This document shows positions 4,771 to 33,997 of a stretch of 64,000 bases of DNA, one piece after another; position 1 is the first letter of the stretch; every line of letters begins with the position of its first letter. Both the position numbers and the translations under genes were made by a program. Where the stretch lies: UHGV virus genome UHGV-2031204; one strand, given 5' to 3'. Source of the DNA: a virus. The notes beneath the pieces are model-generated. The model worked only from the letters and a program-made list of their open reading frames with translations. It was not told the origin of the DNA and made no database searches.

Positions 4771-4774
4771 TTAT

Positions 4775-4796: not shown

Positions 4797-4825
4797 ACTC
4801 ACAAGTACGTTATAAGGTGGTTATT

Positions 4826-5608: not shown

Positions 5609-5625
5609 TTAAAAAAGGAGGGTAG

Positions 5626-12315: not shown

Positions 12316-12317
12316 CG

Positions 12318-12924: not shown

Positions 12925-13195
12925 AACTATTGTATTTTGTCAAAACGGTGATGTAAAACAGTACCGGGGTAAGAAGTTAATTCGTACGTTAGATTATCGT
13001 GAAGCAAAACGTTTCGTTGAAGAGTGCGCGTGGTTAATGCATTACGAAGGGAACTATCGTGCCATCTTAGAAGCGCCGCGTTTAGAACGTGCAGTTGCAC
13101 AGATGGCAATAGGTAATCCTAAGAACTGTTACCTGGCACGCAAACCAAAATACCTACAGCGTGTCTCGCTAGGCAGTTTTATTGCGGGATTTTAA
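12914..13195 (+). CDS. Hypothetical protein
   Basis: 93-aa ORF overlapping upstream stop. Confidence 0.45.
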   Translation: MKRETIVFCQNGDVKQYRGKKLIRTLDYREAKRFVEECAWLMHYEGNYRAILEAPRLERAVAQMAIGNPKNCYLARKPKYLQRVSLGSFIAGF

Positions 13196-13204
13196 TAAAA
13201 ATAA

Positions 13205-18908: not shown

Positions 18909-18923
18909 GGAAAGGTGTGGGTA

Positions 18924-20167: not shown

Positions 20168-20199
20168 CCCTACTCCTTAATAGGAGTAGGGTAGTTTTT
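20168..20199. terminator. Terminator between convergent genes
   Basis: CCCTACTCC-TTAAT-AGGAGTAGGG plus T-run; same stem family as 61200 and 61811. Confidence 0.65.
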
Positions 20200-20680
20200 A
20201 TTGTTCCGCAGGATGGAGCATTGTTCCAGTGTCAGGCGCTACACCTTCAATACAGCGGAAGAACGTAATGCCTTTACCATCACCCGTTTTATATTCTAAA
20301 GTAGAATACGCAAACGTTGGTGTTTTTGAAAGTAAACCGTTTACACGGTAATAACGTTGTCCTGTGATAGGATCAATATTCCCATTGACTTTACCTAATA
20401 AATCTTTATAAAGTTGGGGCGACTCAATCTTACCATTTGGCCAAGTGGCTACCCAATTAGCACCAGTATCGACTACGGTTACTGAACCTAACATGAGGTT
20501 AGTCGAACTGACGACAGGTTTGTAATTTGCAAAATCTTGCTCTACGCCCATACAGGTGTAAATAACCATGTCGTGTGGTTCCACCGGCACAGTCGAGAAT
20601 TGACCGTTAGCGGTGGGTTGTAAAGCACATCCTGCTAATGAAAAAACACCAACCATAACGGTAAGAAAACGCTTTATCAT
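20198..20680 (-). CDS. Lipoprotein (signal peptide with lipobox LAG-C), opposite-strand moron
   Basis: MIKRFLTVMVGVFSLAGC…; ATG 20680 after RBS AAGGTGA; track start GTG 20689. Confidence 0.65.
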   Translation of the reverse strand: MIKRFLTVMVGVFSLAGCALQPTANGQFSTVPVEPHDMVIYTCMGVEQDFANYKPVVSSTNLMLGSVTVVDTGANWVATWPNGKIESPQLYKDLLGKVNGNIDPITGQRYYRVNGLLSKTPTFAYSTLEYKTGDGKGITFFRCIEGVAPDTGTMLHPAEQ

Positions 20681-20821
20681 ACTTTTCACCTTTTTTATAA
20701 AAAGTTAAAAAAAAATATTTTTACAGACAAGCCTTACTGCCGTCTGTCATAACAATTAACACCACTTCTATAATCCGAACAATACTATGCAATCCACCCT
20801 GCCAACCACGAGGTAAATACG

Positions 20822-21361
20822 ATGGCTAAGGCTTTTCAACAGCAACTTATTGACGCCGTTAATGCCAAAAACGGTTCCCTGGAACACCAACTGACTGTTG
20901 GAGATGTTAATTTCGGTACTGTAGAACTTTATAGTCCTTCTGGCGAAGACGACAACCGTAACACTAAAGTTGTCCTGACCGCAAAAGACGAAAGCGCTAA
21001 CTTTACCGGAAGCAAAGAGTTCCATTATATCCGTCTGGTCGCTGAATCTTTAATCGGTGTGAAAACCGTTACCGATGCAACTACAGATGTCGCTAACGAT
21101 GTTATCGTAGCTGCTCTGAATGCCGACATGATTACTAAAGGTTATGTCAATGATGCCTTTACCGCTGAAGAACTGGAAATCCAGAAAACTGATGCAGGTG
21201 AAGGCGGTTTCAACTATACCGTTCAGGTAAAAGAAGGTCATATCAAGTTCCAGGCTGGTATGATCGCAAACTACCAGTACCGTGTACCGGCTCCTCCGAA
21301 GGTAGCTCTGGACGGCCTGGACGGTGAGCTTGACGGCTTCAATGCAGAAGCGGTTATGTAA
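20822..21361 (+). CDS. Paralog-family member (family of 16793/17655/21430)
   Basis: 179 aa; …NTKVVLTAKDESANFTGSKEFHYIRL…GELDGFN. Confidence 0.55.
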   Translation: MAKAFQQQLIDAVNAKNGSLEHQLTVGDVNFGTVELYSPSGEDDNRNTKVVLTAKDESANFTGSKEFHYIRLVAESLIGVKTVTDATTDVANDVIVAALNADMITKGYVNDAFTAEELEIQKTDAGEGGFNYTVQVKEGHIKFQAGMIANYQYRVPAPPKVALDGLDGELDGFNAEAVM

Positions 21362-21429: not shown

Positions 21430-21960
21430 ATGGCCGCTACTAACCAGATGATGTTGGTCGCGCTTTATAATGCTGCTAACACTGAGCTACCACATCAGAT
21501 TACTGATAAAGAAGTGTCCTTTGGTCTCCCTACTGCGCTGGAGGGCGAAAGTAAGAATACCAAAGTTACCATGACTGCACTACCAGGTTCTGAGAATTTC
21601 AAAGGTGCAATCGAACTGCATTACGATCGTCTGGAACCGGGTGTTGTAGGACGTATTGAACTAACTGACGATCTGTCTCGTTGGGAAGATCAAAACGAAT
21701 TGCGCGCATGGTTACAATATTACATCAACAAAGTAAAACCTGACGATGCTATCGCACCAGCTGACGTTTCTTATTCTACCGAAGACCAGAAAGACGAACA
21801 TGAAAACGTCACTCTGCGTACGGTAACGTGCACCGTTACTGAAAAGAACCTCCGTTATAAACCGGGCGTAATGGCAACTTTCGTAATTACACCGAAAGTT
21901 GTTGATAATCGTATTGACCTGGCCACCACCAACGGTGAGCTGGACGGTTTTACGTCCTAA
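21430..21960 (+). CDS. Paralog-family member
   Basis: 176 aa; …NTKVTMTALPGSENFKGAIELHYDRL…GELDGFT. Confidence 0.55.
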   Translation: MAATNQMMLVALYNAANTELPHQITDKEVSFGLPTALEGESKNTKVTMTALPGSENFKGAIELHYDRLEPGVVGRIELTDDLSRWEDQNELRAWLQYYINKVKPDDAIAPADVSYSTEDQKDEHENVTLRTVTCTVTEKNLRYKPGVMATFVITPKVVDNRIDLATTNGELDGFTS

Positions 21961-21973
21961 GAAAAAATAAAAA

Positions 21974-22013
21974 TACCTACCTCCCGTAATAGGAGGTAGG
22001 TATACTTTTTTTT
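21974..22013. terminator. Bidirectional terminator between convergent gene blocks
   Basis: TACCTACCTCC-CGTAAT-AGGAGGTAGGTA flanked by A-run and T-run. Confidence 0.7.
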
Positions 22014-22022
22014 CGCTGTCGA

Positions 22023-22694
22023 TTACAGCCCTTGCTCTAACGCAAACGCTTTTATCGAATCGTAATCACGTGCTTCAGCCCAAGCCCTGACTTCTCTCTT
22101 CTGCTCAGACATTGCGTGGTGTAATCTTTGATCGCGCTCAACGATTGCTGCCAGCAACGTCTTGCACTGTTCTAACGTAAACGGTTCGATACGGGTGTTG
22201 TTAGCCGTTAACCAATACGCTGGCGCAGTTTCTGACTGGATATAACGACTCAGTGCTACCTGTGACTTCTCATCTGCCTGGAAAGTGAAATCACCTACCT
22301 GAATCTCAGCATAGCGCGCATCCTGATAACGGAATTCCAAAGCGCTTAGAATTTTCTGAACATCGGTAAAGATATACCGCACCGTGGAACGTAAACCTGT
22401 ACGAATTTCTTCCAGGTCAATCCCCAACGTGTCGTTAACAAAGTCTTTCGCTTTCTGTAGCGTAAACCGTGCTTCGATTTCAGACATGTCGTAGTTACGC
22501 ATTTGTTCCAATGCTTCGCGATCAGACATCCCATCAATCAGCTTATAGTGCAGTAACGCACAAAACCCTGTACGGCCGTGATCTTCGCTACCGATTTTCT
22601 CCATGTAGTTACCATGACGGTCAATCGGTAAATCATGCGCAAAATAACGGCGACGGATTTCTTCTTTCGTTAAGCCTTCACCAGTAGCAGACAT
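22023..22694 (-). CDS. Hypothetical protein, last gene of the radical-SAM operon
   Basis: 223-aa ORF overlapping upstream gene by 25 nt. Confidence 0.5.
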   Translation of the reverse strand: MSATGEGLTKEEIRRRYFAHDLPIDRHGNYMEKIGSEDHGRTGFCALLHYKLIDGMSDREALEQMRNYDMSEIEARFTLQKAKDFVNDTLGIDLEEIRTGLRSTVRYIFTDVQKILSALEFRYQDARYAEIQVGDFTFQADEKSQVALSRYIQSETAPAYWLTANNTRIEPFTLEQCKTLLAAIVERDQRLHHAMSEQKREVRAWAEARDYDSIKAFALEQGL

Positions 22695-23242
22695 TCATCG
22701 TCTCCTTTAATCAACCCTAATTCGATTAACAGTTCAAAATCGATATGACGGAATCTTGTGTCGAAATCCGATTCCCAATCGATACGGATACCCTGGCATT
22801 CTTCTGGCGTTAGCTCAGGAAAAATCACGGTATTAAATTTCTCTCGCTCATCGTAAAACCCATCAATCGGTGAGTTCGGGTTACGTGTTGCGAAGATAGT
22901 AATGCCGGGGAAGGACAATGCCAACACAGTGATAGATTCTGCGCTGGGTTCGCTTAAAGAGCGGCGTAGAAACGCAATTTTGTGACGTGGGAAATCCAAT
23001 ACCCGTTCTTCAAACCCTGGGTTACGTTTTTCAATTTCCGCGACCGACAGGTCAGTAAGTTCGGTGCAGTACATTGGGATGATTACAGTCACGCCGTGAC
23101 GAATCAGTAAGCGTTTTACGTCATCGGTAAAATCTTCACCGTTAATCACCGCATAGCAACCGAATAGCTTACTGTTTTCCAGAAACTTATCCAGAAGTCG
23201 AATTCTACGCTTCGTAATATTGTTGATCAGAATTGGTTTCAT
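22670..23242 (-). CDS. Hypothetical protein in the radical-SAM operon
   Basis: 190-aa ORF; RBS AAGAGAAG; overlaps the 3' end of the upstream gene. Confidence 0.5.
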   Translation of the reverse strand: MKPILINNITKRRIRLLDKFLENSKLFGCYAVINGEDFTDDVKRLLIRHGVTVIIPMYCTELTDLSVAEIEKRNPGFEERVLDFPRHKIAFLRRSLSEPSAESITVLALSFPGITIFATRNPNSPIDGFYDEREKFNTVIFPELTPEECQGIRIDWESDFDTRFRHIDFELLIELGLIKGDDECLLLVKA

Positions 23243-24527
23243 CTTTGGCTTCTCTTAATAATTTTTCCTTTTGGGCACGTTCACGAACACAGCGTGGGCA
23301 ATAACACATACTCGTGTCGTGGAACGCTTTTGCTGACGTCGTACCCATCTTCTGTTTCCAGTATTCCGCCACCATCAGTTTCGCTGTCGTCCAGCCGCAC
23401 TGGCGTCGTTCAGCGTGATACGCTTTACGGTCTTCTAACGTTCCTTCCCCGTTCTCGTAAGAAGCCGCCGCACAGCTACCACAAGCGTGTTTCATCGGAC
23501 AACCTAAACAGGTTTCTGGGTAGTTGGTATATTGCGTTTGAATCTCTTCTAGCAGCTTACCGTTGTCCAGACTGACGAATTCCCGACCTACCAACTCAAA
23601 CACCGCAGAACGCGACGTTACCGTTGACATAAAGCGGTTACAGCCAAAGATCTTACGGTCAAATCCTAAGCACGTCATGTGCGTTAATGTCCCACAGAAC
23701 GGACGTAAGCGTTCTGGGTTCAACCGTACGGTGTCATTATACAGTAACTGGTCACGCCAGTTCGGTTCCCAAATCGTATCGAAATCCAACCCTTCTGGAA
23801 TGATGTGCGATAAGATATTACGTGGGTTGGTGTGTAATCCTTTCTCAACCCAGTAATCTATCACATCCATCATCTGTAAAGCGATTGACGTCGCCATGCT
23901 ACGTGGCATAACGTCTTCGAAAGTTACGTTTCCAGAAATTGTCCCACCGCCAGTAATGTCAATTAATGACTTCATCCCCGCAGCATAGAACGGCAGCGTT
24001 TCTAACGTAAAGGTTGCTTTTACGCCGAGCTCTGCAATGCCAACCTCTTTTAAGTAGTTATAGCCACGTACTGCGGCTTCGTAAGAACCCTGGCGTGTTG
24101 TTGTGAAGATACGATAACGGTCATGGGATTCAGGTAAGCCATCAATCGAAACCCCAACCGAAAGTTTATCTTTCCAACGTTCTACAATCTCACGGTTCAA
24201 CGGACGATCTAACAGCGTTCCGTTCGTGGAGATACTAAACATAAACGGTCGGTTGTGTTCTTTACACAACTGCTCAGCGGTTTCAAACGCAGCCAGCAGC
24301 AGTTTAGGCTGCATGAACGGTTCGCCACCGATAATGTCGATAATAACTTCAACATTCGGTTCGTTTTTATCGCGTTCAAAACAGGCGTGCAAGAAATCAA
24401 CAATATCTGCCGCTTTGTTGTTACGTGGGTACTTACGTTCGTAACAATATTCGCAGTCCAGGTTACATGAAAGGTTGGTTACGATCTGATACGTTAACTG
24501 CTTAGGGAATTCATTTACTTGACTCAT
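23205..24527 (-). CDS. Radical SAM enzyme with C-terminal SPASM-like Cys cluster
   Basis: CNLDCEYC (CxxxCxxC) near N-terminus; C-terminal cysteines CLGCPMKHACGSC…CGW…CYCPRC. Confidence 0.75.
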   Translation of the reverse strand: MSQVNEFPKQLTYQIVTNLSCNLDCEYCYERKYPRNNKAADIVDFLHACFERDKNEPNVEVIIDIIGGEPFMQPKLLLAAFETAEQLCKEHNRPFMFSISTNGTLLDRPLNREIVERWKDKLSVGVSIDGLPESHDRYRIFTTTRQGSYEAAVRGYNYLKEVGIAELGVKATFTLETLPFYAAGMKSLIDITGGGTISGNVTFEDVMPRSMATSIALQMMDVIDYWVEKGLHTNPRNILSHIIPEGLDFDTIWEPNWRDQLLYNDTVRLNPERLRPFCGTLTHMTCLGFDRKIFGCNRFMSTVTSRSAVFELVGREFVSLDNGKLLEEIQTQYTNYPETCLGCPMKHACGSCAAASYENGEGTLEDRKAYHAERRQCGWTTAKLMVAEYWKQKMGTTSAKAFHDTSMCYCPRCVRERAQKEKLLREAKDETNSDQQYYEA

Positions 24528-25434
24528 TTGCCGCCCCTCTATTACGCCCTGCCATCACTACGCGACGAATATATTCGTACGCCTCTACACCGATAGAGAA
24601 GGCCAGTTGGTTACATCCCGATTCCAGAACGTTAGGTGCATTCTGGAGTTGGTGCTCACCACCGTCTGCATTAATCCAAAGACTTTCGCTGCAAACGTTA
24701 CACCCTTCTTCAAACACTTTACTTACCGTAAAGCCACATTCACGACTATTTACTACATTCAGTCGTTCAATGTTGTCCTGAACCTGATAGTAGCCGTAAA
24801 TAAAGTTCATGACGTGGTCGGGCGATAAAGGTTTTGGCATTTTCGCATCTAAGAGTAACGTCATTGCACGGAAACCGTAATGGTAAATCGCGCTGTGCAG
24901 CTGAATAATATCTTCGTGCCAGCGTTTGTCCCCTAAACGGTCCCGTGTCAGGACACCCCAAGTCTGGACATTATCCAGCTCGTAGATCGTTTCCAGTGCT
25001 TCGTAACAGCCTTCGTCAATAAAGCGCATAAACGGGCGCTCAGACGACTTAAACCCATCGATGCTAACGTAGACATTGTCAAACTGTTTTAGCAACGGGA
25101 GATGCGATTTACGCATCTTTAAGCCATTGGTATACAACTGGTGTTTGAGTTCTGGACGAATCACTTTTAATTCGTCAACAAACGCCTCAATTTTACGGGT
25201 TGCCAGTAATGGCTCACCACCCGTCCACTGAATTTCGGTAATGGTTGGATTAGCTTCCAGCGCTTCCAAAATTCGCTCACGTTGAAACTCTCGCGGAGAA
25301 TCTTCACGATTCATGTAATAGGCTCCACCGCAGAAGCTACAGTCCAGGTTACACTTGGACGTAGCGACTACGGACAATACGGTGGGTTTATCGTATAAAC
25401 GATTCGATAACCTTGGTTCTGCATTGGTTGTCAT
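24511..25434 (-). CDS. Radical SAM enzyme (second maturase-like protein)
   Basis: CNLDCSFC motif; C-terminal CGF…CNVC…GCNQ cysteines; 17-nt overlap with downstream gene. Confidence 0.7.
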   Translation of the reverse strand: MTTNAEPRLSNRLYDKPTVLSVVATSKCNLDCSFCGGAYYMNREDSPREFQRERILEALEANPTITEIQWTGGEPLLATRKIEAFVDELKVIRPELKHQLYTNGLKMRKSHLPLLKQFDNVYVSIDGFKSSERPFMRFIDEGCYEALETIYELDNVQTWGVLTRDRLGDKRWHEDIIQLHSAIYHYGFRAMTLLLDAKMPKPLSPDHVMNFIYGYYQVQDNIERLNVVNSRECGFTVSKVFEEGCNVCSESLWINADGGEHQLQNAPNVLESGCNQLAFSIGVEAYEYIRRVVMAGRNRGAANESSK

Positions 25435-25455
25435 TGCAGGTGACTCCGGTCGTTT

Positions 25456-26343
25456 TTAAATATAATCAATGGCGAACAAAGGATCGTCGTCTACGTTAGC
25501 ACCAGGGGTTAACAAGAATGGAGAGTTATACGCTTCCAAAATACGGTTAAGGTCTTTATAACGGACATTTAAACGTTCTAAATCCGCTAACGTTACGTTA
25601 CGGTCCAACACCGCCGACACTGCTGCTTTCTCTTCGTCAGTTAACGTGACTTTCGTCATTAAGAAACTAACGAGTTTTGCCAGATCCGCTTCTGTTGACG
25701 GATGCTCGCCAATACGCGTTTGAATCAAATGCTGCATCCAAGGCTTACGGATGCGTTTTGTGATTTCGTGTTCATCCGTCAGGGCAACCCACACAGAACG
25801 TTCACGATCCCACACGAACTTATAGCTATACGCCATTAAATCCGCTAAGCAATTAATCCCTAACGCTTCGTACCCTTCAATTTCGATATACGATTCCGTA
25901 TCGAAATAGTTCTTCGTTTCTGGTGTTACCAGGGTAAAGAAATACGGGAACGAGCCTAAGTAATCCGGTGACCACCAACGACGGGCAACCGGTTTTGCGC
26001 CCATTTCTTCAAATGGGGTAAAGAACAATTCCATATCTACGGAGTTATTCAAAATCCCATCACTAAAGAAATATTTACCCGCAACCAGTTTACCACGCAA
26101 CTCGGAGTCACCGGTAAAGACCACTACACTTTCTGCCGACAGATCACGAATCTTAAACGTATTTTCTACACGATAGTTTTTACGATCGGTAAAGAAACGC
26201 CCGCGCACTTTAGGCCATTCGCCCGGCAACTGTGTCAACAGACGAACTTCGTCTGCTAAGTGTGCACGTACGGAATCAGGGGAAGAAATGTGAAGTGGAT
26301 GATTGAAAATTGTTTTGTACGCTAAATGTAAATCATTCTTCAT
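25456..26343 (-). CDS. Hypothetical protein, first gene of the enzyme block
   Basis: ATG 26343 follows GGAG; track start TTG 26355. Confidence 0.5.
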   Translation of the reverse strand: MKNDLHLAYKTIFNHPLHISSPDSVRAHLADEVRLLTQLPGEWPKVRGRFFTDRKNYRVENTFKIRDLSAESVVVFTGDSELRGKLVAGKYFFSDGILNNSVDMELFFTPFEEMGAKPVARRWWSPDYLGSFPYFFTLVTPETKNYFDTESYIEIEGYEALGINCLADLMAYSYKFVWDRERSVWVALTDEHEITKRIRKPWMQHLIQTRIGEHPSTEADLAKLVSFLMTKVTLTDEEKAAVSAVLDRNVTLADLERLNVRYKDLNRILEAYNSPFLLTPGANVDDDPLFAIDYI

Positions 26344-26492
26344 TGATTGCTCCAATTATTTCACGGTCAAACGGGCATTCAGGGTATAGAACCCACCGCG
26401 CCATTGCCTACCGGTAACTTGAAACTCAGTAGTAAACCCGTACGATTAACTCGGTTATTGCGTAATAGACATACTACCACTGGAGGGCTTAG

Positions 26493-26699
26493 TTACCTTC
26501 CCCCCGCACCTTTACTACAGCTACCACTGCACGACCAGCTACATCCGCCGTTACAGTTATAATGGCTTAAAGGTAAACCGGCAAGGTTATTGGTTGAAGA
26601 CACAGTGCCTTGGTTTGCAATATAGTTGTTTGCGTTAGCGGTCGTAATATACCCTTCCGCTGTTACTAACCGATCACGAAGGTTCTTAAGGCTAATCAC
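26493..26699 (-). CDS. Short Cys-repeat peptide 3 (precursor-like: leader plus short Cys core)
   Basis: GTG 26699 after RBS GGGAGGT; MISLKNLRDRLV…SHYNCNGGCSWSCSGSCSKGAGGR; track start TTG 26729 would overlap upstream gene. Confidence 0.5.
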   Translation of the reverse strand: MISLKNLRDRLVTAEGYITTANANNYIANQGTVSSTNNLAGLPLSHYNCNGGCSWSCSGSCSKGAGGR

Positions 26700-26701: not shown

Positions 26702-27100
26702 TTACCTCCCAGAACACCCACCAGAACAACTACCTGAGCAGCCTGCAGAACAGTTTCCTACACACGAGTTAGAACAACTCCCCGTACAGCTTCCTGAACA
26801 GCCACCAGAACAGGTATTCGAACATCCACTACAGCCTGCACTACAACCTGATACACAGTTTGCAGAACACGAAGAACCACAGCCGCCTGATGCGTTCCCT
26901 GTACAACCACCAGAACAGCTCGAACAGGTCCAGCTACAGCTCCCACCACAGTCGTAGTGGTTGCGAGCTTGCCCACCGAATAAGTCTGCGTTGTTCGTCG
27001 CTTTCCCACGAATATAGTTTTGCACTGCACCCGTATTCTTCAATGCAGTGTTGTCAATGTTATTTAGCCGCGCTTGTAGCGCAGGTAATCCAATTGCCAT
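26702..27100 (-). CDS. Cys-tetrad-repeat peptide 2 (precursor-like)
   Basis: RBS AAGAGGTGA; ~50-aa leader then …HYDCGGSCSWTCSS followed by ~19 C-[ST]-[GSN]-x repeats. Confidence 0.6.
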   Translation of the reverse strand: MAIGLPALQARLNNIDNTALKNTGAVQNYIRGKATNNADLFGGQARNHYDCGGSCSWTCSSCSGGCTGNASGGCGSSCSANCVSGCSAGCSGCSNTCSGGCSGSCTGSCSNSCVGNCSAGCSGSCSGGCSGR

Positions 27101-27110: not shown

Positions 27111-27506
27111 TTAGGTTGGGCCAGAACAGCCACCAGAGCAAGCACCAGAACAACCCGTAGAGCAACGGCCCGAGCAAGCACCCCCACAGGTCCCACTGCA
27201 ACCTGAGCAGCCACCGGAACACGTTGAACTACATCCAGTACACTGGTTACCGCACGCAGAGGAGCAGCTACCTACACACACTGACGTACAGGTGCCCGAA
27301 CAACTCGTACAGCCATGCGTACAACCGTTTGAGCACGTCCAGCTGCAGCTCCCCCCGCAGTCTAACCGACTTGGCGTCCAACCCGAAAAAGTGTCGGCGG
27401 CATTATGTGCTTTCGACGCAACTTGCGGATCAACACGTGGGCCAGTTGCCATTTGGTTCTCTACGTTGGTGATTCGGTCACGTACATTTTTAACACTGAT
27501 CGCCAT
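27111..27506 (-). CDS. Cys-tetrad-repeat peptide 1 (precursor-like)
   Basis: ATG 27506 after RBS AAGGA; leader …SRLDCGGSCSWTCSNGC then 21 Cys at period-4 spacing. Confidence 0.6.
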   Translation of the reverse strand: MAISVKNVRDRITNVENQMATGPRVDPQVASKAHNAADTFSGWTPSRLDCGGSCSWTCSNGCTHGCTSCSGTCTSVCVGSCSSACGNQCTGCSSTCSGGCSGCSGTCGGACSGRCSTGCSGACSGGCSGPT

Positions 27507-27573
27507 CACGTATCCTTAAAATAAAAAAGAATGGAGGACTACGCCCATAAGCATAGTTCCTCCTGTAATAAAG

Positions 27574-28773
27574 TTATCGCGTACCCGCTTCTGCCTGAAC
27601 GTCATCACGGGACGTCAAGTTAGCGTTAACGTGTACTGGAGCCTGAACCACACCACCATATTTCTTGTGGAGATAGCCCGTATGTGGGTTATCCGCCGCA
27701 ATATGGTTTTGCAGGTTCTGATTCGCCTGACTGATTGCGTTCGTGTTATTCGCAACCTGTTGTTTAAGCGCATCCAGGTTTTGTTGCAGATTATCAATTT
27801 TCTGATCGGACTCATTACCCCGCTGTTCTAACGCAGCAATGCGCTGAATCGCTTGGTTGAGTTTGGTGCTCAGATCGTTGATATTTTTCTGTAACTGTAA
27901 CACTAGCGAATTTAGGTTCGCCAATGCCAATGCCATCTTCTGGTAGTTTTGTGCAACGATGTTAAGTTGGTCGTTCCACGCTTCCAAAGATTTGACAACA
28001 GCATCAATACGTTTTCCTAACGCTTCGTCTGCTTTCTTCAACGCATTAATATCAGTAATGGTTGCATCGATGGCAGACTGTACGTCACGGATAAGTGCAC
28101 GGATCTCCGTTTCTGTTAACCCGTTAACCTGGTGAATATCCAGATGGTGGACGTTACCCGTGGCGTTAATGTGCGCGTTCAGCGCGTCCAGGAAATCGTT
28201 TTTCAGGCTTTCGAGAATCGCTTTGATGTTCTCAAGCTGTACAGCATCGCCCGCCGTTATCGCATCTTTGATGCCAGCGAGCACTGTAATAATGTATTCG
28301 AAGCCGTAAATATCGCCGACGTCTTTATACGTCGGTGCCGACGGAAATGTATCAGGAACATTTCGCAAGTCTTTAAAGCCAACAGTTCGATTATCGAGAT
28401 TCAACTCAGCAATCGCCTGTTCTATCGCAGTCACGTTTGCCGACTGCGGACCCCCGACTACTTGCGCCGATACCGTGATATCGGTCGGAATCGCGGTGTT
28501 CGTTACAACAACCGCCATTACCACTTCCCGGTTCTTCGTCAATTTCTCGTAAGCCGGGTGTGCAAAAATCAACTCATAGTCCGTTCCGCGCTCATACGTC
28601 GCATCGGGGCGGTTAGCAACCCGCAAGCGGAACGTATCAGCATAAAACGGTCCGTCAGGAAAAGCAAACGCACGGTTAACTTTACCTGTACCTAACGTAA
28701 CCTGACGCTCCACGGCGTTAGAGGTTAGGCTTCCCGTTAAATCTAAAGGGTATTGGTATACAATGGAGGCCAT
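27574..28773 (-). CDS. Fibre protein with N-terminal anchor domain and long coiled coil (fibritin/whisker-like)
   Basis: ATG 28773 after RBS AAGGAGA; heptad-rich 250-380 region; N-terminal motif shared with the three giant proteins. Confidence 0.6.
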   Translation of the reverse strand: MASIVYQYPLDLTGSLTSNAVERQVTLGTGKVNRAFAFPDGPFYADTFRLRVANRPDATYERGTDYELIFAHPAYEKLTKNREVVMAVVVTNTAIPTDITVSAQVVGGPQSANVTAIEQAIAELNLDNRTVGFKDLRNVPDTFPSAPTYKDVGDIYGFEYIITVLAGIKDAITAGDAVQLENIKAILESLKNDFLDALNAHINATGNVHHLDIHQVNGLTETEIRALIRDVQSAIDATITDINALKKADEALGKRIDAVVKSLEAWNDQLNIVAQNYQKMALALANLNSLVLQLQKNINDLSTKLNQAIQRIAALEQRGNESDQKIDNLQQNLDALKQQVANNTNAISQANQNLQNHIAADNPHTGYLHKKYGGVVQAPVHVNANLTSRDDVQAEAGTR

Positions 28774-28813
28774 GGCCACTCTCCTTAATCCGAGACGTCC
28801 TTGTCTCGTGGCG

Positions 28814-31800
28814 TTAAGATGTAAACATAAGATTGAACTGGAGCTTATCGATATCGCGCGTTTGTGCTGGGTTAACCGCGTCGTACGTGGTTGCCACGTA
28901 AACCGTTAATGTCCCGTCAGCAAACGAGGTTTTCACCGGTGGTGTAGTCCCTGTTTGTCCGTCGGTTACAATGACAACAGGTTGAGCTGGAAGTTGATGG
29001 AACTGACCCTTAACCGCTTTGTACACCAAACCAGATTGCGCTGCTAACTCCGTGTCGGTATACACGATAAACGGTGTGTCGATATCTGTCTGTTTAATGA
29101 CAGTGTTCGTCTCAACGTCAATCAGCTGAACAGCACCGAACTTCATACGGTAGCTATCGTATTCATTTTTTGGAATGACAAACGTAGCATGTACACGGAC
29201 TTCTTCGGCGGGTTTAAATCCGGCGTGTTCTTTTTCCAGATAGCTGTTAGCAGTTAACGTTACTGTCTGTTCAGTCATCGTACCACCAGACTGGTTTAAC
29301 CCGTAACGAACTTGGGTTATACCTGTCGGAGCCGCAAGCCTGATTTTTAGTCTACGGTTAGCGGTGCCGGGATTACCAGGCACTCTAACACGCAGGCTCA
29401 AAGCCAGATATGCATTCGTACCGGTAGTCGGTTTCGTATACGCACCCAACCACTTCATATTCGCGGTTGCCGCTTGACTGTTCTCAGAAGCAGTAGCCGC
29501 TACAACGTTTGCAGCGACCGCTTTCTGCCAGAACTGGTCAGCGCAGTTCTCATACGCTACTCTACCGATACTTTTATAACCTGCATAGGTTTCCTGTATC
29601 GGCAGCTTGGGGCGTGTTGTGATCCCGCTCAACGCATTCCATCTCTGACCATCGACATACCCCGCACCATTGCTCGCGGATGCCGTGGGGGCTTTCAGCG
29701 GTTGGTTAACCAAGGTTTGGAGTGGACCCGTTTTTCGATCGTACGCCGCTGCAACGTCGTGCTGATCTCTAACAGCAGCGTGTTCTTCTAATTCACGAAC
29801 CCTGCCTAACCGTTTCACTTTATCGATGTTAATAGCAACTATACGCTTTTTATCGGTTGTAACTGTACCAACAAATAATCGCGAACTCGTATCCGGCAGC
29901 TTTTCCAGACCGATCTGATATTGAGCTTTCGAACCTACAAGAGCAGCATGAACATAGAACGTCTGGTTAGCATGGTTTTCTGGGAATTCGTTGCTTAAAT
30001 CCACCGACCACGTCGGTAATGTATAGCTATTACTACCGAAATCTAACCTGACCTCTTCCGTCAAGTATAGAATCCAACCTTCCGCGGTTTCCACGCCTGC
30101 GATAATAACTGCCTGCCCCGCTGTTGAGAATGTGGTATCATTAACGAACTCTTCGACTGTGTATGCGTTACCTGAACAGAAAACGCGGTCAGCTTTAGAG
30201 AAAATTCGTGCCATCTTGTCCCAATTACCCGCACCCATGTAACAACCAGATTCTGGGTTGTGGGCAGGAGCCATCTGACGCAACTGTGACTTACCGGGAA
30301 CTCGCGTCCAACCCGACCCAGGGTTAAAGGTATACTTCGCAGCGTAACCCAAAGCATTTAGGTCCCCGATATTCCGTATTGTCAGCGTATAAGGCAGCCA
30401 TAGACCGAAGTTTACACCGTCGGCAGAAGCAAAAATTGGCTGGCCTACACGTCGCGTTTTATTACCCGCTTCTTCCCTCAGAGACTGATAACTTAAGCCG
30501 TAATCAAGGTCTAAGAACCAATCAACGAGTTTGAAAGTAGCCGAGTTAAAACGTAGATAACCATTTTCTTTAGTCGGACTTACCATGAAGTAATAGATGT
30601 CGAGGACCCGACGTCCGTTACTCAAGATTTTCATGCATGAAACTTGTAATAAGTCGAACTCACAAACGGTGTTAATACCTAACATCCAAAGAGCAAACAA
30701 TGCATTGCCGCTTTGGTGTGCTGCACTGATGCGCTCGTTCGCGTAACCATTTGCCTGACCAGATGGTGCGCCATCGACAATCATCCTAATCATCTTCTGG
30801 CGATCCGCTTCCTCTAACGTCAGCCGTTCTGATGACAGGGCAAAGTTACCGTAGATGTTTCGATATGGGAAGGTTTCCGCTTTCGTCAAATACCAACCGT
30901 TTAACTGACCGTGACGCTCCTCTGGAGTCATACATGCAGCCATACAGCTTAACTGTTCGTAAAGCGTCGGATCAACTTCTCGGCGGTTGTTGTTCGGACC
31001 ATAGCCGCTATATCCGGGAACGTCATAAGGTTTACTTGGGTCAACTTCTACTTCGATCGTATAACGGTTACGTGGATTGGATAGCCATACTTTGTTTGAG
31101 CCACCGATACCAACAGGATGAGAAAGACCGATGGTATAGATAGAACCACGACCTTTATCCCAAGTAAATGTTGCTTCGCCTGAGGTATTGTTTGGGTTAT
31201 CGTAACGCAGATAATCAAAAAACTCTTTGCCTTGCGTACTTTTAATAGTAACGTTCGGCATCTGGTCCGCATCGTTAATCTGCCAGCAGGAAAGCATCAT
31301 CCCTGAGACATTAGGTTTAGCATACATCGCAAAACAACGATTGTTTGCCTGTCCACCGCCCCACTTACGACTGGTTTCTACAGTTGAGCCATCCGCGAAC
31401 GATAGTCTGGTAGCATCAACCTTAATGGGGAAACGTTCGGCACCCTCTAACGTAACTCTGCCCGTTAACGTATCGATTGTGAAACTTGTTGACCATTGAC
31501 GGAAATTAATCGTCGTACCGTCGGCAGCCGCAAACCACACGCTGGGCACATGATTCACACGAATCACGCTGTCGCGTACCGCACAAGCATGGTTACATTC
31601 TGGACCGTGAACAAAGTTGTGACCGATTGTCCATTTAGCCCGTGCCTCTGGCGGGTAATACGTAAAGAACTGACCAGTCTGCGACTCTTCGGTCTTCTGA
31701 CCAATTCGTAAACAGAGGTTATCTCCGAATTGCCCCATTTCTCCGGTTAGGGTTACACGTTCAAATTCTAACTCAGTATTAGCAGACAAGTCGGCTTTAC

Positions 31801-33997
31801 GTAAACGCCATGCCGCCACGGCATAAGCAGCGTTATTTACCGTGGAGCGAAGAAGATAAACGTGGTCGTCAACTAACACAACATCGTCAGCTTCTGGCCA
31901 AGGATTCCAGGTTTGTTCCACAGTACCGCTGGGGTTGCCATTACGGTATTTAGGCATTGTAACACGACATACCACCATGTGTTTACTGTGGTCCATTGAA
32001 CCATTGAACAACACCAAATAACGGTTATTGTCAGAACCCAGACAAATAATCGCTTCCTGACCACCGATCAATATAGCTTTTAAGGTCACTCCAGGATATT
32101 TACTCATCCCAACAGGATGGTATTTCACCGAAGTTTGCTGAGGGTTCACAAACACATTCGACGTATTGATATCAGCATAACCGTAGTAAATCGCCTCTGT
32201 ACCAGGTACACCATTAGAAGCATTACGTAACGAATAAACTTTACCTTGTTGGAATCCTACGACACCTTTCTGATAAGACTGATTCTTTGTAAAACCTGAA
32301 TAATTACCGAGTGCCGGGATGGGTAAGAAGTTTTTGTTACCGAACTTCGCCCCACCGACAGTCCACGCAGGTAAGATGGTATTCAGTTTATCGGAAACCT
32401 TCTTGATCTCTTTTGCGAACAACCACCCTTGACGCGACGTGACAGCTTTGTCGTTCGTGGCATCAATCGCATCCCACAGCTGTAAAATACCATCTACAGT
32501 CGCACTACCAATCGGGACATTATCCAAATCGGCGGTAGTGTGCGTGTGCTCCTTCACACTTTTATTTTTCAGCACGTTCGCTAACGCTTTTGTTACCGGT
32601 TTAGCGATCGGCATGGTGTTATCCATCTTATCGATACCGAAATCGGTTTTCGTTAAGGTTAACACCATTTTATCGCCCGTCTTAACAAACCCTTTACCGT
32701 TAACCGTGTAGTCATCGTCAACGTACAAGTCTAACCGGTCTTTTAATTCGGTCACCGCCTTTTGGGAAATAGCAGTGCCTAGTGCTACGGAGGTTGCGAT
32801 ATTCGTAATCGAAAACACCCCATAAACCGACTCGGTTGCTGTGGGAATATTCGCGTTCAACGTTAGCGGGTTAGACTGCTTCGCTGTACCGTATGGTTTT
32901 ACGGTGTCTGATGGTTTGAAATAGGCATTTGCTTCAAGTAACGTTACAGACGTCAGGTACATGTTCACCATTTCTGGTGTAACCAAATACACGGAGTTGT
33001 AAACCGGGGCTAATACATCTTGTTCTGTCCCAGAGTGTACCCAAAGCGTATTCAGGCCCGCACTAAATTCAACCGCCAAACCCGATTCGTTGTTGTCCTG
33101 GTCCGCTTTAATCACTAACGGTTGTGGTGAGGTAATTAACCACTTATCACCACGGATACTGATAATGTGCCCGCCTGCGGTTTTAAACGTCAGTTCGTTA
33201 CCATTCGTGCTCCCCCATCGACCGTAAACAGTACCGAGGGCTTCACCCATTAACTGATCGACGTCTGACTGCTCAATGCCCGCCGAACCCATCAGCGTAG
33301 CCAATTCGTCAATCGTCAGTCCAAACGCTTTTGTCGCGTCAACAGCACGTCCTAAGACTGGAAGGGCACCAACGTCAGTGGTCGTATACTGGTGTGCGTT
33401 AGGATTAAGGTGGTGTTGGTATAACCCCTCGTCGAAAACCTTTTTACCGTTCTCGTAAATCAGGTTAGTGACTTCGGTAAACGCTGCATCTAACTCTGTT
33501 GAACGTTGAACGATTTTCTTACGGATGTCGTTTAACGCTTTAACAACCTCATCCCTCAGAATAGCTTCTTCTAAGTTAGCAGGAGGATCGATGGGTTGAA
33601 TAACTGGCGCATACGCCATTAACTCTGACCAGTCCACGTTACGTGGGTCTTTCAGGTCAGTACGAACTAAGAACTTTCCGATTTCAGATTGTGGTACACG
33701 ATACTGGCGTGCTACCCCTAAAATCTCATATTCGATTTCTGTTGCGGTCAGCAACATGAACCCGCCGTAGATCTGATCTTGCTCAGCTTCTGCGAGTTCT
33801 TTAAAGTAATAGCCTAAATAGTAGTCCAACCCCTCAATCAGAGTACGACGTCCGTTAGGCGCGGTATCGTCGGCTACTGTGAGTTTTAATCCGATACGAT
33901 AAAAAGGTCCTTCAGGCGGAATGACCACATTAAATCGGTTAGGGTACGTCGCTGTGCTTAACGTACCGTTAAACTGCGCCGCGTCTTCTCTCGGCAT
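28814..33997 (-). CDS. Giant fibre-like structural protein (1727 aa)
   Basis: N-terminal VVIPPEGPFYRIGLKL…GLDYYLGYY shared-anchor motif. Confidence 0.7.
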   Translation of the reverse strand: MPREDAAQFNGTLSTATYPNRFNVVIPPEGPFYRIGLKLTVADDTAPNGRRTLIEGLDYYLGYYFKELAEAEQDQIYGGFMLLTATEIEYEILGVARQYRVPQSEIGKFLVRTDLKDPRNVDWSELMAYAPVIQPIDPPANLEEAILRDEVVKALNDIRKKIVQRSTELDAAFTEVTNLIYENGKKVFDEGLYQHHLNPNAHQYTTTDVGALPVLGRAVDATKAFGLTIDELATLMGSAGIEQSDVDQLMGEALGTVYGRWGSTNGNELTFKTAGGHIISIRGDKWLITSPQPLVIKADQDNNESGLAVEFSAGLNTLWVHSGTEQDVLAPVYNSVYLVTPEMVNMYLTSVTLLEANAYFKPSDTVKPYGTAKQSNPLTLNANIPTATESVYGVFSITNIATSVALGTAISQKAVTELKDRLDLYVDDDYTVNGKGFVKTGDKMVLTLTKTDFGIDKMDNTMPIAKPVTKALANVLKNKSVKEHTHTTADLDNVPIGSATVDGILQLWDAIDATNDKAVTSRQGWLFAKEIKKVSDKLNTILPAWTVGGAKFGNKNFLPIPALGNYSGFTKNQSYQKGVVGFQQGKVYSLRNASNGVPGTEAIYYGYADINTSNVFVNPQQTSVKYHPVGMSKYPGVTLKAILIGGQEAIICLGSDNNRYLVLFNGSMDHSKHMVVCRVTMPKYRNGNPSGTVEQTWNPWPEADDVVLVDDHVYLLRSTVNNAAYAVAAWRLRKADLSANTELEFERVTLTGEMGQFGDNLCLRIGQKTEESQTGQFFTYYPPEARAKWTIGHNFVHGPECNHACAVRDSVIRVNHVPSVWFAAADGTTINFRQWSTSFTIDTLTGRVTLEGAERFPIKVDATRLSFADGSTVETSRKWGGGQANNRCFAMYAKPNVSGMMLSCWQINDADQMPNVTIKSTQGKEFFDYLRYDNPNNTSGEATFTWDKGRGSIYTIGLSHPVGIGGSNKVWLSNPRNRYTIEVEVDPSKPYDVPGYSGYGPNNNRREVDPTLYEQLSCMAACMTPEERHGQLNGWYLTKAETFPYRNIYGNFALSSERLTLEEADRQKMIRMIVDGAPSGQANGYANERISAAHQSGNALFALWMLGINTVCEFDLLQVSCMKILSNGRRVLDIYYFMVSPTKENGYLRFNSATFKLVDWFLDLDYGLSYQSLREEAGNKTRRVGQPIFASADGVNFGLWLPYTLTIRNIGDLNALGYAAKYTFNPGSGWTRVPGKSQLRQMAPAHNPESGCYMGAGNWDKMARIFSKADRVFCSGNAYTVEEFVNDTTFSTAGQAVIIAGVETAEGWILYLTEEVRLDFGSNSYTLPTWSVDLSNEFPENHANQTFYVHAALVGSKAQYQIGLEKLPDTSSRLFVGTVTTDKKRIVAINIDKVKRLGRVRELEEHAAVRDQHDVAAAYDRKTGPLQTLVNQPLKAPTASASNGAGYVDGQRWNALSGITTRPKLPIQETYAGYKSIGRVAYENCADQFWQKAVAANVVAATASENSQAATANMKWLGAYTKPTTGTNAYLALSLRVRVPGNPGTANRRLKIRLAAPTGITQVRYGLNQSGGTMTEQTVTLTANSYLEKEHAGFKPAEEVRVHATFVIPKNEYDSYRMKFGAVQLIDVETNTVIKQTDIDTPFIVYTDTELAAQSGLVYKAVKGQFHQLPAQPVVIVTDGQTGTTPPVKTSFADGTLTVYVATTYDAVNPAQTRDIDKLQFNLMFTS

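What the first reader, a model, noticed from the sequence alone, without database searches (positions are those of the whole stretch)
22023..26343. Two-radical-SAM cassette embedded in the late fibre operon: candidate undescribed phage peptide-maturation system
Directly downstream of the Cys-repeat peptides, co-oriented and with overlapping stop/start codons, lie five genes: unknown 296 aa, radical SAM (CNLDCSFC), radical SAM with SPASM-like C-terminal Cys cluster (CNLDCEYC plus CLGCPMKHACGSC…CYCPRC), unknown 190 aa, unknown 223 aa. Precursor-like peptides followed by radical-SAM maturases is the canonical RiPP cluster layout. Here it sits at the 3' end of a virion fibre operon, so the product could be a cross-linked virion component or a released effector.
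Basis: partly seen in the sequence, partly recalled or inferred. Interest (0 to 1): 0.92.

Follow-up and report, generated by a model that had tools for sequence, protein, structure and literature searches.

The report
Radical-SAM maturases for cysteine-repeat tail-fibre proteins
A giant Salmonella-type phage carries, at the end of its tail-fibre operon, two radical-SAM enzymes and a partner protein that almost certainly chemically modify three adjacent cysteine-repeat proteins, and the same enzyme-plus-cysteine-repeat pairing recurs next to or fused to tail-fibre genes in many unrelated phages, which suggests an unstudied way of hardening phage fibres.

Summary
Five co-oriented minus-strand genes (22023-26343) lie downstream of three Cys-repeat ORFs, at the 3' end of an operon encoding orthologues of the SPN3US tail proteins gp168 and gp167.

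The window is a diverged SPN3US-like jumbo phage.

The 440-aa enzyme is a radical-SAM/SPASM peptide maturase. Its best solved relative is the thioether synthase CteB, and its best families are PapB and TIGR04115, the "CXXX-repeat target" maturase. It scores below both curated cut-offs and lacks an N-terminal RRE.

In 77 of 80 viral loci retrieved by enzyme similarity alone, a same-strand Cys-repeat ORF lies nearby. In at least four lineages that repeat is the C-terminal end of a recognisable tail-fibre protein.

The conserved core is the Cys-repeat protein, the 296-aa orphan-fold partner, the short radical-SAM enzyme and the SPASM enzyme. One locus fuses the two enzymes. The 190-aa and DUF4376 genes are restricted to the jumbo-phage clade.

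Best reading: maturation of a fibre-associated Cys-repeat module, probably by thioether cross-linking. The chemistry and the virion location are inferred, not shown.

This is a new variant of a kind so far known only from database models. No paper in the searched library links these enzymes to tail fibres.

The parts
27111..27509 (-). Cys-repeat protein C1 (132 aa). About 50 aa of non-Cys N-terminal segment, then the junction 'LDCGGSCSWTC', then an 82-aa core with 21 Cys (17 spacings of 4, 3 of 3). Presumed substrate.
   Evidence: ORF. phrog_6085 E=1.6e-40. Weak TIGR04114 hit, 14.4 bits. Composition and spacing. Third-position-biased divergence from the SPN3US orthologue.
26702..27100 (-). Cys-repeat protein C2 (132 aa, 20 Cys). 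Presumed substrate.
   Evidence: phrog_6085 E=4.7e-38. TIGR04114 'Cys-rich repeat' 20.4 bits against a cut-off of 20..
26493..26699 (-). Short paralogue C3 (68 aa, GTG start after GGGAGG). It keeps only the junction motif CNGGCSWSCSGSC (5 Cys).
   Evidence: phrog_6085 E=2.5e-24. Sequence read. 35 synonymous against 7 non-synonymous codon differences from SPN3US.
25456..26343 (-). Accessory protein 'ACC' (295 aa, phrog_8030). Orphan fold: beta-rich N-terminal half and helical C-terminal half. Co-inherited with the enzymes. Role unknown; proposed substrate-presenting partner.
24511..25434 (-). rSAM1 (307 aa): radical-SAM enzyme with CNLDCSFC and TGGEPL, plus three conserved C-terminal Cys (C-x1-2-C ... 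C). One auxiliary cluster is inferred; this is not a full SPASM domain.
   Evidence: Pfam Radical_SAM 53 bits. Family alignment. Present in 28 sources, the window plus 27 loci. Extra paralogue nested between the Cys genes in L018. Fused to the SPASM enzyme in L028.
23205..24527 (-). rSAM2 (440 aa): radical-SAM/SPASM maturase with CNLDCEYC, IGGEPF and eight conserved C-terminal Cys including CLGCPMKHACGSC. No N-terminal RRE. Clade-specific CxCxxC tail.
   Evidence: Pfam 57 bits. NCBIfam PapB 116.8 bits and TIGR04115 114.7 bits, both below their cut-offs. PDB profile hit to CteB 5WGG, E=1.8e-35, aligned to CteB residues 105-431. Conserved Cys.
22670..23242 (-). p190 (190 aa, phrog_7988). Found only in SPN3US-like phages. 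The predicted alpha/beta fold resembles the radical-SAM partial TIM barrel but has no CxxxCxxC motif. Possibly a degenerate rSAM paralogue; this is only a lead.
22023..22694 (-). p223 (223 aa) with a DUF4376 domain. Apart from one hit in L066, found only in SPN3US-like phages. Weakly linked to tail and tail-fibre families. Probably a fibre-related accessory rather than part of the maturase core.
   Evidence: Pfam DUF4376 E=5e-11. phrog_8169, plus weak tail-fibre PHROGs. Distribution. The SPN3US orthologue gp161 is not listed among virion proteins.
21973..22003 (.). Bidirectional intrinsic-terminator-like hairpin that closes the minus-strand operon.
   Evidence: 13-bp stem followed by T-runs on both strands.
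27574..28779 (-). 401-aa coiled-coil virion protein, orthologue of SPN3US gp167. Operon context.
   Evidence: 77% identity. phrog_2163. Abundant in SPN3US virions.
28814..33997 (-). 1727-aa fibre/baseplate-periphery protein, orthologue of SPN3US gp168. First gene of the operon.
   Evidence: 48% identity over the full length. Tail protein, related to phiKZ gp131 (PMC5105663). Virion mass spectrometry.

Best explanation
This is a phage-borne protein-maturation module of the 'CXXX-repeat target' radical-SAM/SPASM kind, attached to the tail-fibre operon.

Proposed course of events:
1. Late in infection the operon makes the gp168-like and gp167-like fibre proteins and three small proteins, C1, C2 and C3. 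Each has a roughly 50-aa N-terminal segment, a conserved junction (…H/Y-Y/L-D/N-C-x-G-x-C-S-W-S/T-C…) and a core of C-[S/T]-[G/S]-[S/G/T] units.
2. The SPASM enzyme (rSAM2) and the shorter enzyme (rSAM1), together with the orphan-fold partner ACC, act on the Cys cores.
3. By analogy with the closest characterised relatives, CteB and PapB, each enzyme cleaves SAM to a 5'-deoxyadenosyl radical, abstracts a hydrogen from a carbon of a neighbouring residue and joins it to a cysteine sulphur. This would give a series of small thioether rings.
4. The product is a covalently stapled, protease- and reduction-resistant rod or tip that becomes part of, or decorates, the tail fibre.

Shown here:
- the enzyme families;
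- the conserved Fe-S ligand patterns;
- the tight and widespread co-occurrence of enzyme and Cys repeat;
- the fusion of the Cys module to tail-fibre proteins in other phages;
- the conservation of ACC and rSAM1 with rSAM2, and a natural rSAM1-rSAM2 fusion.

Inferred:
- that C1-C3 are the substrates (about 0.85);
- that the chemistry is thioether cross-linking (about 0.5-0.6);
- that the products sit in the virion fibre of this phage (about 0.65);
- that ACC replaces the missing RRE (about 0.35).

The 190-aa and DUF4376 genes are lineage-specific additions, not core parts.
For: Enzyme identity:
- rSAM2 best families are PapB (1.2e-33) and TIGR04115 'CXXX-repeat target family' (6.5e-33, covering profile positions 3-345 of 359).
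- Best solved relative is the thioether synthase CteB (1.8e-35), aligned through its SPASM region.
- Eight C-terminal Cys are conserved.

Substrate link:
- C2 reaches the TIGR04114 cut-off.
- Of 80 viral loci retrieved by enzyme similarity alone, 77 have a (C-x2-3)x6-C ORF on the same strand and only 1 on the opposite strand, within 1.09 Mb. In the 64-kb window the only two such stretches are C1 and C2.
- The repeat unit has the same composition in all three clades.
- A close relative (L018) has an extra rSAM1 paralogue nested between C1 and C2.

Fibre link:
- Campylobacter P2-like prophage: a 384-aa tail fibre (PF12571, 1.8e-40) ends in CNGCSGSCSGSCSSGC…, followed by ACC, rSAM2 and rSAM1, then the sheath gene.
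- Deferribacter GpJ-type prophage: a 302-aa fibre-like protein with '…NADQLGGQAGSYYRCSDCSWTCSSSC…', followed by ACC, rSAM1 and rSAM2.
- The carriers in L022, L028 and L029 match tail-fibre PHROGs.
- In five lineages the junction 'F[DN]G[ST]GD..I..G|C' continues a fibre-type repeat (my reading of the motif).
- A true TIGR04115 member (L055, 385 bits) follows baseplate hub, baseplate wedge and tail-collar-fibre genes.

Core set:
- ACC is in 28 of the 29 fetched loci L001-L029. rSAM1 is in 28 sources. The two enzymes are fused in L028.

Operon context.
Against: - No chemistry was tested.
- rSAM2 fails the curated cut-offs of TIGR04115 (115 against 350 bits) and PapB (117 against 340).
- The window's cores contain no Asp or Glu, so the PapB CX3D/E rule cannot apply.
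- C1-C3 have no recognisable tail-fibre domain of their own.
- Fusion to annotated tail-fibre domains is seen in only about 4-5 of 47 distinct non-jumbo carriers.
- SPN3US virion proteomics did not report these proteins. However, the ORFs were mis-annotated and the cores have almost no tryptic sites, so this absence is uninformative.
- Radical-SAM/SPASM enzymes also catalyse other reactions, such as Cys-to-formylglycine conversion, epimerisation and C-C links.
Confidence: 0.6

Rival explanations
1. The Cys-repeat proteins are the substrates, but the modification is not a thioether ladder. Candidates are Cys-to-formylglycine conversion (anSME-like), epimerisation, C-C cross-links, or preparation of a metal- or Fe-S-binding array. 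The product is still fibre-associated.
For: anSME is the second-best solved relative (1.2e-15). TIGR03942 (sulfatase maturase) is among the hits. The acceptor residues of CteB and PapB are not obviously conserved; there is no Asp or Glu in the cores. Two different rSAM enzymes could mean two different reactions.
Against: The closest relatives by a wide margin are thioether synthases: CteB 125.7 bits against anSME 60.5 bits, with PapB and TIGR04115 as the top families. A target that is 25% Cys fits S-C cross-linking best.
Confidence: 0.2
2. Classical RiPP. C1-C3 are precursors whose N-terminal 50 aa is a leader. The mature Cys-rich peptides are released at lysis as effectors, for example antimicrobial or signalling peptides, rather than built into the virion.
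For: The layout is short ORFs followed by rSAM maturases. The precursors are 68-132 aa, with a conserved N-terminal part and a junction motif. Many carriers in the TIGR04115-proper clade are also small stand-alone proteins.
Against: There is no protease, exporter or immunity gene in the operon. The module lies inside a structural operon closed by a terminator. In other phages the same module is the C-terminus of 250-600-aa tail-fibre proteins. No RRE was found.
Confidence: 0.1
3. Assembly device. The Cys tails and the enzymes act only transiently, as a covalent trimerisation or folding clamp for the fibres, like tail-fibre chaperones. They are removed or are sub-stoichiometric in the mature particle.
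For: The position at the C-terminal end of fibre proteins is where intramolecular chaperones usually sit (established knowledge of tail-fibre assembly; not tested here). A DUF4376 tail-related protein lies adjacent. The SPN3US proteins gp161-166 are not listed in virions.
Against: There is no protease domain at the junction. The repeats are long and conserved (up to 92 Cys), which is more than a clamp would seem to need.
Confidence: 0.07
4. The radical-SAM enzymes are nucleotide or cofactor enzymes (QueE, NrdG or MoaA type) unrelated to the Cys proteins.
For: Weak N-terminal matches of rSAM1 to MoaA (43.8 bits), QueE (35.5) and NrdG (34).
Against: All are far below their cut-offs (284, 260 and 131) and cover only the generic Fe-S/SAM-binding segment. 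rSAM2 is clearly of the SPASM peptide-maturase type. The co-occurrence with Cys repeats and the rSAM1-rSAM2 fusion argue against it.
Confidence: 0.02

Closest known systems
NCBIfam TIGR04115 / TIGR04114: 'radical SAM peptide maturase, CXXX-repeat target family' and its 'Cys-rich repeat-containing' target. Defined in silico; I found no experimental characterisation in the searched library.
   Same: An rSAM/SPASM enzyme lies next to a protein with Cys at every fourth residue. The repeat unit has the same composition, C-[S/T]-G-[S/G/T]. True members (L033 434 bits, L055 385 bits) also sit in viral contigs, and L055 sits in a baseplate/tail-fibre module.
   Different: The window's enzyme scores 115 bits against a cut-off of 350, so it belongs to a sister clade. 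That clade additionally carries ACC in all but one locus examined (L019) and, in most loci, a second, shorter rSAM enzyme. It uses a different start motif, CSW[ST]C instead of C-x3-C-[TSA]-G-L-C.
CteB (SCIFF maturase, PDB 5WGG) and PapB (freyrasin): ranthipeptide/sactipeptide-type thioether synthases.
   Same: Best solved-structure and best family matches. The same rSAM core plus a two-cluster SPASM domain. Cys-rich substrates.
   Different: No N-terminal RRE; the alignment starts at CteB residue 105 and the phage CxxxCxxC motif begins at residue 21. The substrates lack PapB's CX3D/E acceptor pattern. The substrates are repeat proteins or fibre tails, not peptides of about 45 aa. The curated cut-offs are not met.
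His-Xaa-Ser system (HxsB and HxsC paired radical-SAM maturases acting on the repeat peptide HxsA).
   Same: Two different rSAM enzymes are encoded together with a short-period repeat target and an extra protein of unknown function. rSAM2 hits HxsB (75 bits) and rSAM1 hits HxsC (39 bits).
   Different: The scores are far below the cut-offs (370 and 268). The target repeat is C-x3, not H-x-S. ACC has no NCBIfam hit, so there is no HxsD match.
Non-standard stabilisation of phage fibre tips, for example the metal-ion-stapled HxH repeats of the T4 gp37 tip and dedicated fibre chaperones (from my own knowledge, not tested here).
   Same: A short-period repeat at the distal end of a fibre protein, with its folding or rigidity depending on something beyond the polypeptide. 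Dedicated helper genes lie next to the fibre gene.
   Different: Here the helpers are radical-SAM enzymes, which implies covalent chemistry. To my knowledge no such case has been described for any virion protein.

Membership tests
Radical SAM superfamily (PF04055) | CX3CX2C cluster motif, a GGE-type SAM-binding motif, and a Pfam score above the gathering threshold | tested here: met
   rSAM1: CNLDCSFC, TGGEPL, 53 bits. rSAM2: CNLDCEYC, IGGEPF, 57 bits. The cut-off is 29.5.
SPASM-domain subgroup (rSAM2) | C-terminal domain with about 7-8 Cys, including CX2CX5CX2-3C, that ligate two auxiliary [4Fe-4S] clusters | tested here: met
   C278, C286, C296, C340, C343, C349, C352 and C377 are conserved in 16 homologues. 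The profile aligns through the CteB SPASM region. Caveat: the Pfam SPASM model gives no hit at E<=0.1 for the window protein; it hits weakly (18 bits) in the L028 homologue.
SPASM-domain subgroup (rSAM1) | The same 7-8 Cys pattern | tested here: not met
   Only three conserved C-terminal Cys (C-x1-2-C … C). A single twitch-like auxiliary cluster is inferred, not shown.
TIGR04115 (CXXX-repeat target rSAM maturase) | Score at or above the curated cut-off of 350 bits | tested here: not met
   114.7 bits. Other ACC-clade enzymes score 144-182. True members in viral loci score 385-434.
TIGR04115 (CXXX-repeat target rSAM maturase) | Adjacent gene encoding a Cys-every-fourth-residue repeat protein (TIGR04114) | tested here: met
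   C2 scores 20.4 bits (cut-off 20) and C1 14.4 bits. Spacing of 4 in 17 of 20 and 16 of 19 intervals.
PapB-type ranthipeptide maturase (NF047865) | Curated cut-off of 340 bits, and a substrate with CX3D/E motifs | tested here: not met
   116.8 bits. No Asp or Glu in the C1 and C2 cores.
SCIFF/CteB maturase (TIGR03974) | Curated cut-off of 425 bits, and an N-terminal RRE domain | tested here: not met
   59.5 bits. The homology starts at CteB residue 105, and the phage protein has only 20 residues before its CxxxCxxC motif.
RiPP biosynthetic cluster (general definition) | Ribosomal precursor with a recognition (leader) part and a core part next to its modifying enzyme | tested here: met
   A roughly 50-aa N-terminal segment, a conserved junction and a Cys core. 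The enzyme genes start about 150 nt downstream of C3, the last Cys-repeat gene.
RiPP biosynthetic cluster (general definition) | RRE, leader protease and/or exporter | tested here: not met
   No such domains in the operon. ACC has no PqqD/RRE-like structural match.
Thioether (sactionine/ranthionine) cross-linked product | S-C bonds between Cys and the C-alpha, C-beta or C-gamma of another residue | not testable with these tools
   Requires mass spectrometry or NMR of the co-expressed product.
Phage tail-fibre component (C1-C3 of this window) | Presence in the virion tail, or a tail-fibre domain | tested here: inconclusive
   C1-C3 have no tail-fibre domain of their own. Homologous Cys modules are C-terminal parts of tail fibres in L003, L022, L028 and L029. 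The SPN3US proteomics is uninformative because the ORFs were mis-annotated.
   rSAM1 scores 35.5 against 260 (QueE), 34 against 131 (NrdG) and 43.8 against 284 (MoaA). None of the three appears among rSAM2's 25 listed family hits.

The most novel reading that the evidence does not exclude
Phage tail fibres, or fibre-tip subunits, carry a cysteine-repeat module that dedicated radical-SAM enzymes convert into a covalently stapled poly-thioether rod. This would be the first enzymatically cross-linked, RiPP-like structural material in a virion. It would be widespread (more than 478 viral contigs) and spread across jumbo myoviruses, P2-like myoviruses and GpJ-type (lambda-like tail) phages. The jumbo-phage version would use a heteromeric set of three small subunits, a new partner protein fold and two cooperating radical-SAM enzymes.
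Probability: 0.4. Interest if true: 0.88.

Novelty: new variant of a known kind. Interest (0 to 1): 0.78.

Why it matters
If the reading is right, radical-SAM chemistry is used to build virion parts, not only to make secreted peptides or cofactors. That would matter in several ways.

- **Biology.** It would add a new class of post-translational modification to phage structural biology. It could also explain why radical-SAM genes sit in tail-fibre clusters of giant phages, a fact noted as 'highly unusual' but left unexplained for Aeromonas phage 332-Vera (PMC12390700).
- **Testability.** SPN3US has amber mutants, proteomics and cryo-EM, so it offers a tractable model in a cultured phage.
- **Annotation.** The substrate genes are mis-annotated or missing in SPN3US and missing in several relatives, and the annotated start of one enzyme cuts off its Fe-S motif.
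- **Enzymology.** Here are SPASM maturases without an RRE, together with a conserved orphan-fold partner and a second rSAM enzyme. They act on an extremely simple, repetitive substrate, which is attractive for mechanism studies and for making cross-linked peptide materials.
- **Phage engineering.** A covalently stapled fibre tip could bear on particle stability and on host-range engineering.

Tried and rejected
2. **p190 as an electron donor (flavodoxin-like).** The model instead resembles rSAM partial TIM barrels. The profile-profile comparison with rSAM2 is not significant. I keep this only as a lead.
3. **A regulatory RNA or terminator in the 149-nt C3-ACC spacer.** Folding gives z=0.02 and there is no match in phage genomes. 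Relatives have a spacer of about 22 nt. Nothing found.
4. **Sigma-70 promoters.** Fewer were found than in shuffled sequence. This is uninformative for a phage that carries its own RNA polymerase.
5. **The Cys region as a recent DNA tandem repeat.** Only weak period-12 arrays were found. The periodicity is kept at the protein level.
6. **Literature.** Ten searches found no paper linking radical-SAM enzymes to tail fibres or to CXXX repeats. The 2011 paper that I recall as the origin of the TIGR models is not held, so I could not check what it says about phage context.
7. **afdb50 fold search.** Unavailable.
8. **Scans of genome contigs and metagenome contigs.** Not run. The viral-contig scan and three prophage contexts answered the question, and the cost was not justified.

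Full report
**What the window is.** The region matches SPN3US-like jumbo phages (Seoulvirus and Erwinia, Cronobacter and Proteus relatives) at about 72-74% nucleotide identity over the enzyme genes. Gene order is identical to SPN3US genes 161-168. The closest proteins (93-99% identical) come from uncultured contigs of about 225 kb and from Salmonella assemblies.

**Checking the observation.**
- Three of the four junctions overlap, by 17, 38 and 25 nt. The first junction is a 21-nt gap.
- Both enzymes pass Pfam Radical_SAM.
- The operon starts with orthologues of SPN3US gp168 (1727 aa, 48% identity) and gp167 (401 aa, 77%). Both were detected in SPN3US virions, and gp168 was assigned to the tail (PMC5694885 Suppl. 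Table 1; PMC5105663).
- The operon ends at a strong bidirectional hairpin at 21973-22003.

**The Cys-repeat genes.** Between the fibre genes and the five-gene block lie three paralogous ORFs.
- C1 (27509..27111) has 21 Cys.
- C2 (27100..26702) has 20 Cys.
- C3 (26699..26493, GTG start) is 68 aa with 5 Cys.
- In C1 and C2, 33 of 39 Cys-Cys intervals are exactly four residues, and about 85% of the core is C, G, S or T.
- They are real genes. Against SPN3US the differences concentrate at codon position 3, and C3 has 35 synonymous against 7 non-synonymous codon changes.
- All three match phrog_6085.
- Across all six frames of the 64-kb window, the pattern (C-x2-3)x6-C occurs only in C1 and C2.

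**What the enzymes are: rSAM2.** The 440-aa protein has the CX3CX2C and GGE motifs plus eight C-terminal Cys, conserved in homologues down to 27% identity.
- Its family profile finds the thioether synthase CteB (5WGG) at E=1.8e-35, aligned through the SPASM region. anSME is next at 1e-15.
- The alignment begins at CteB residue 105, and the phage protein has only 20 residues before its cluster motif. It therefore has no RRE.
- In NCBIfam the top hits are PapB (116.8 bits) and TIGR04115, the 'CXXX-repeat target family' (114.7 bits over nearly the whole profile). Both are far below the curated cut-offs.
- C2 just reaches the cut-off of the matching target model TIGR04114.

**What the enzymes are: rSAM1.** The 307-aa protein has the canonical cluster and SAM motifs and three conserved C-terminal Cys. 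That fits one auxiliary cluster rather than a full SPASM domain. Its matches to MoaA, QueE and NrdG cover only the generic N-terminal segment and lie far below the cut-offs.

**Comparative evidence from prophages.** Distant homologues of rSAM2 (33-40% identity) lie in prophages of quite different tail types.
- *Campylobacter pinnipediorum*, a P2-like prophage. After the baseplate J and I genes comes a 384-aa tail fibre (PF12571, 1.8e-40). Its last 38 residues are CNGCSGSCSGSCSSGCTACSGCSGSCSGKSDGCGCRHS. It is followed by an ACC homologue, an rSAM2 homologue, an rSAM1 homologue, DUF1353 and the sheath gene.
- *Deferribacter abyssi*, a GpJ-type tail. It has a 302-aa fibre-like protein with '…NADQLGGQAGSYYRCSDCSWTCSSSC…', the same junction as in the window. 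ACC, rSAM1 and rSAM2 follow.

**Comparative evidence from viral contigs.** A scan of IMG/VR with the enzyme alignment confirmed 478 relatives and kept the best 80.
- The loci were chosen on the enzyme alone. In 77 of the 80 a Cys-repeat ORF lies on the same strand within a few kb, against 1 of 80 on the opposite strand in 1.09 Mb.
- Two of the three exceptions, L026 and L027, carry a minimal C3-like ORF.
- The more distant loci include bona fide TIGR04115 members (434 and 385 bits). One of these sits directly after baseplate-hub, baseplate-wedge and tail-collar-fibre genes.
- The repeat unit C-[S/T]-[G/S]-[S/G/T] is the same in all clades.
- Carriers in L003, L022, L028 and L029 have N-terminal tail-fibre domains.
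- In five lineages the Cys region follows a junction 'F[DN]G[ST]GD..I..G', which I read as a fibre-shaft-type repeat.
- Most of the other carriers have short, unannotated N-terminal parts. Fusion to a fibre is therefore shown in some lineages and not in all.

**What belongs to the system.** Iterated HMM searches over all fetched loci give the following picture.
- ACC is in 28 of the 29 fetched loci L001-L029, those whose SPASM enzyme is 31% or more identical to the window's. The exception is L019.
- rSAM1-type genes are in 28 sources, the window plus 27 loci.
- In L028 the two enzyme types are fused in one 686-aa protein with two CxxxCxxC motifs.
- In the closest relative, L018, an extra rSAM1 paralogue (63% identical) sits between C1 and C2.
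- p190 is confined to SPN3US-like phages. p223 (DUF4376) is too, apart from one hit in L066.
- The functional core is therefore the Cys-repeat protein, ACC, rSAM1 and rSAM2.

**The proteins of unknown function.**
- ACC belongs to a tiny family: 41 representatives among 1.84 billion proteins.
- The C-terminal helical half of ACC is the part conserved with the distant Deferribacter (L005) homologue.
- p190 gives a less reliable model. Its best structural matches are radical-SAM partial barrels, but generic TIM barrels score close behind, and there is no sequence support.

**Mechanism.** The best-supported explanation is that rSAM2 and rSAM1, with ACC, modify the Cys cores of C1-C3, and that the product is associated with the tail fibre.
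- Thioether cross-linking is the most likely chemistry, because the nearest characterised relatives do exactly that on Cys-rich substrates.
- The window's cores lack PapB's acidic acceptors, and other SPASM reactions cannot be excluded.
- The conserved junction motifs may be the recognition elements. They are CSW[ST]C in the ACC clade and C-x3-C-[TSA]-G-L-C in the TIGR04115-proper clade. This is an inference.

**Comparison with what is known, and novelty.** As an enzyme-target pairing this is the kind already catalogued as TIGR04115 and TIGR04114. The window's enzyme fails that family's cut-off and belongs to a sister clade with two extra conserved partners.
- I found no paper connecting these systems to phages or fibres, and no experimental work on them.
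- The original in-silico description could not be read.
- One 2025 paper notes eight radical-SAM genes in the tail-fibre cluster of a giant Aeromonas phage as 'highly unusual', without explanation.
- SPN3US proteomics could not have seen the Cys proteins. The annotated gp166 is in the wrong frame and the true ORFs are unannotated.
- I therefore rate this a new variant of a known, uncharacterised kind. Interest is high because it points to radical-SAM-made structural material in virions and can be tested at once in SPN3US.

Noticed in passing
L001 (SPN3US NC_027402) 12167-13196; record 143191-144220: The annotated SPN3US gene gp166/ACQ60_gp100 (111 aa, Val/Ala-rich) is in the wrong frame. The three conserved Cys-repeat ORFs (130, 134 and 68 aa) are unannotated. 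In several related phage records the same place carries no annotation at all.
   Followed up: yes
L001 10321-11256 (SPN3US gp164/ACQ60_gp102): The annotated start of the short radical-SAM gene is Met48 of the ORF. That lies after the CNLDCSFC cluster motif, so the deposited protein lacks its radical-SAM Cys triad.
   Followed up: partly
L018 3576-4487: The closest uncultured relative (93% identical SPASM enzyme) has an additional rSAM1-type gene inserted between the first and second Cys-repeat genes. It is 63% identical to that phage's own rSAM1.
   Followed up: partly
L028 6131-8188: A natural fusion of an rSAM1-type and an rSAM2/SPASM-type enzyme in one 686-aa protein, next to a 437-aa tail-fibre protein with a Cys-repeat tail and an ACC homologue.
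   Followed up: yes
window 26344-26492: The spacer between C3 and the 296-aa gene is about 125 nt longer than in SPN3US and L018, where it is about 22 nt. It has no significant RNA structure and no match in phage genomes. Its origin is unknown.
   Followed up: partly
window 3469-5610: A mosaic segment with 77-85% nucleotide identity to sequences from unrelated phages: the gp38 tail-fibre adhesin/assembly genes of T-even-type phages JSE and Phi1, unnamed ('hypothetical protein') genes of Yersinia phages, and E. coli phage CMS-2020a. It looks like a horizontally exchanged receptor-binding module, and GC skew is locally high.
   Followed up: no
window 17655-18152, 20822-21361, 21430-21960: Three DUF7941 paralogues flank the operon. 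In SPN3US this is 'paralog family B', assigned to the head from tailless-mutant proteomics. A 2026 Goslar preprint proposes that DUF7941 proteins form a baseplate-associated 'fiber cloud'. In addition, the SPN3US paper's text lists gp161 in this family, whereas its table and the domain content point to gp160.
   Followed up: partly
window 18915-19589; L003 8068-8433: A DUF1353 protein lies about 2.4 kb from the operon in the window. A DUF1353 gene also directly follows the radical-SAM pair in the Campylobacter prophage. This may be coincidence or a loose association.
   Followed up: no
window 23205-23330 (C-terminus of rSAM2): The jumbo-phage clade of the SPASM enzyme carries an extra C-terminal CxCxxC motif (CYCPRC here) that is absent from all other homologues. 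It could be an additional metal site.
   Followed up: partly
window 20198-20689 (minus strand): A 163-aa ORF with a lipoprotein-type signal (…VFSLAGC), set against the direction of its neighbours. It has no family hit and its function is unknown.
   Followed up: no
L006 6237-9134: An uncultured phage with a GpJ-type tail gene carries three consecutive radical-SAM genes (274, 301 and 377 aa) after its Cys-repeat protein and ACC homologue. A TSP1_ADAMTS-domain protein lies downstream.
   Followed up: no
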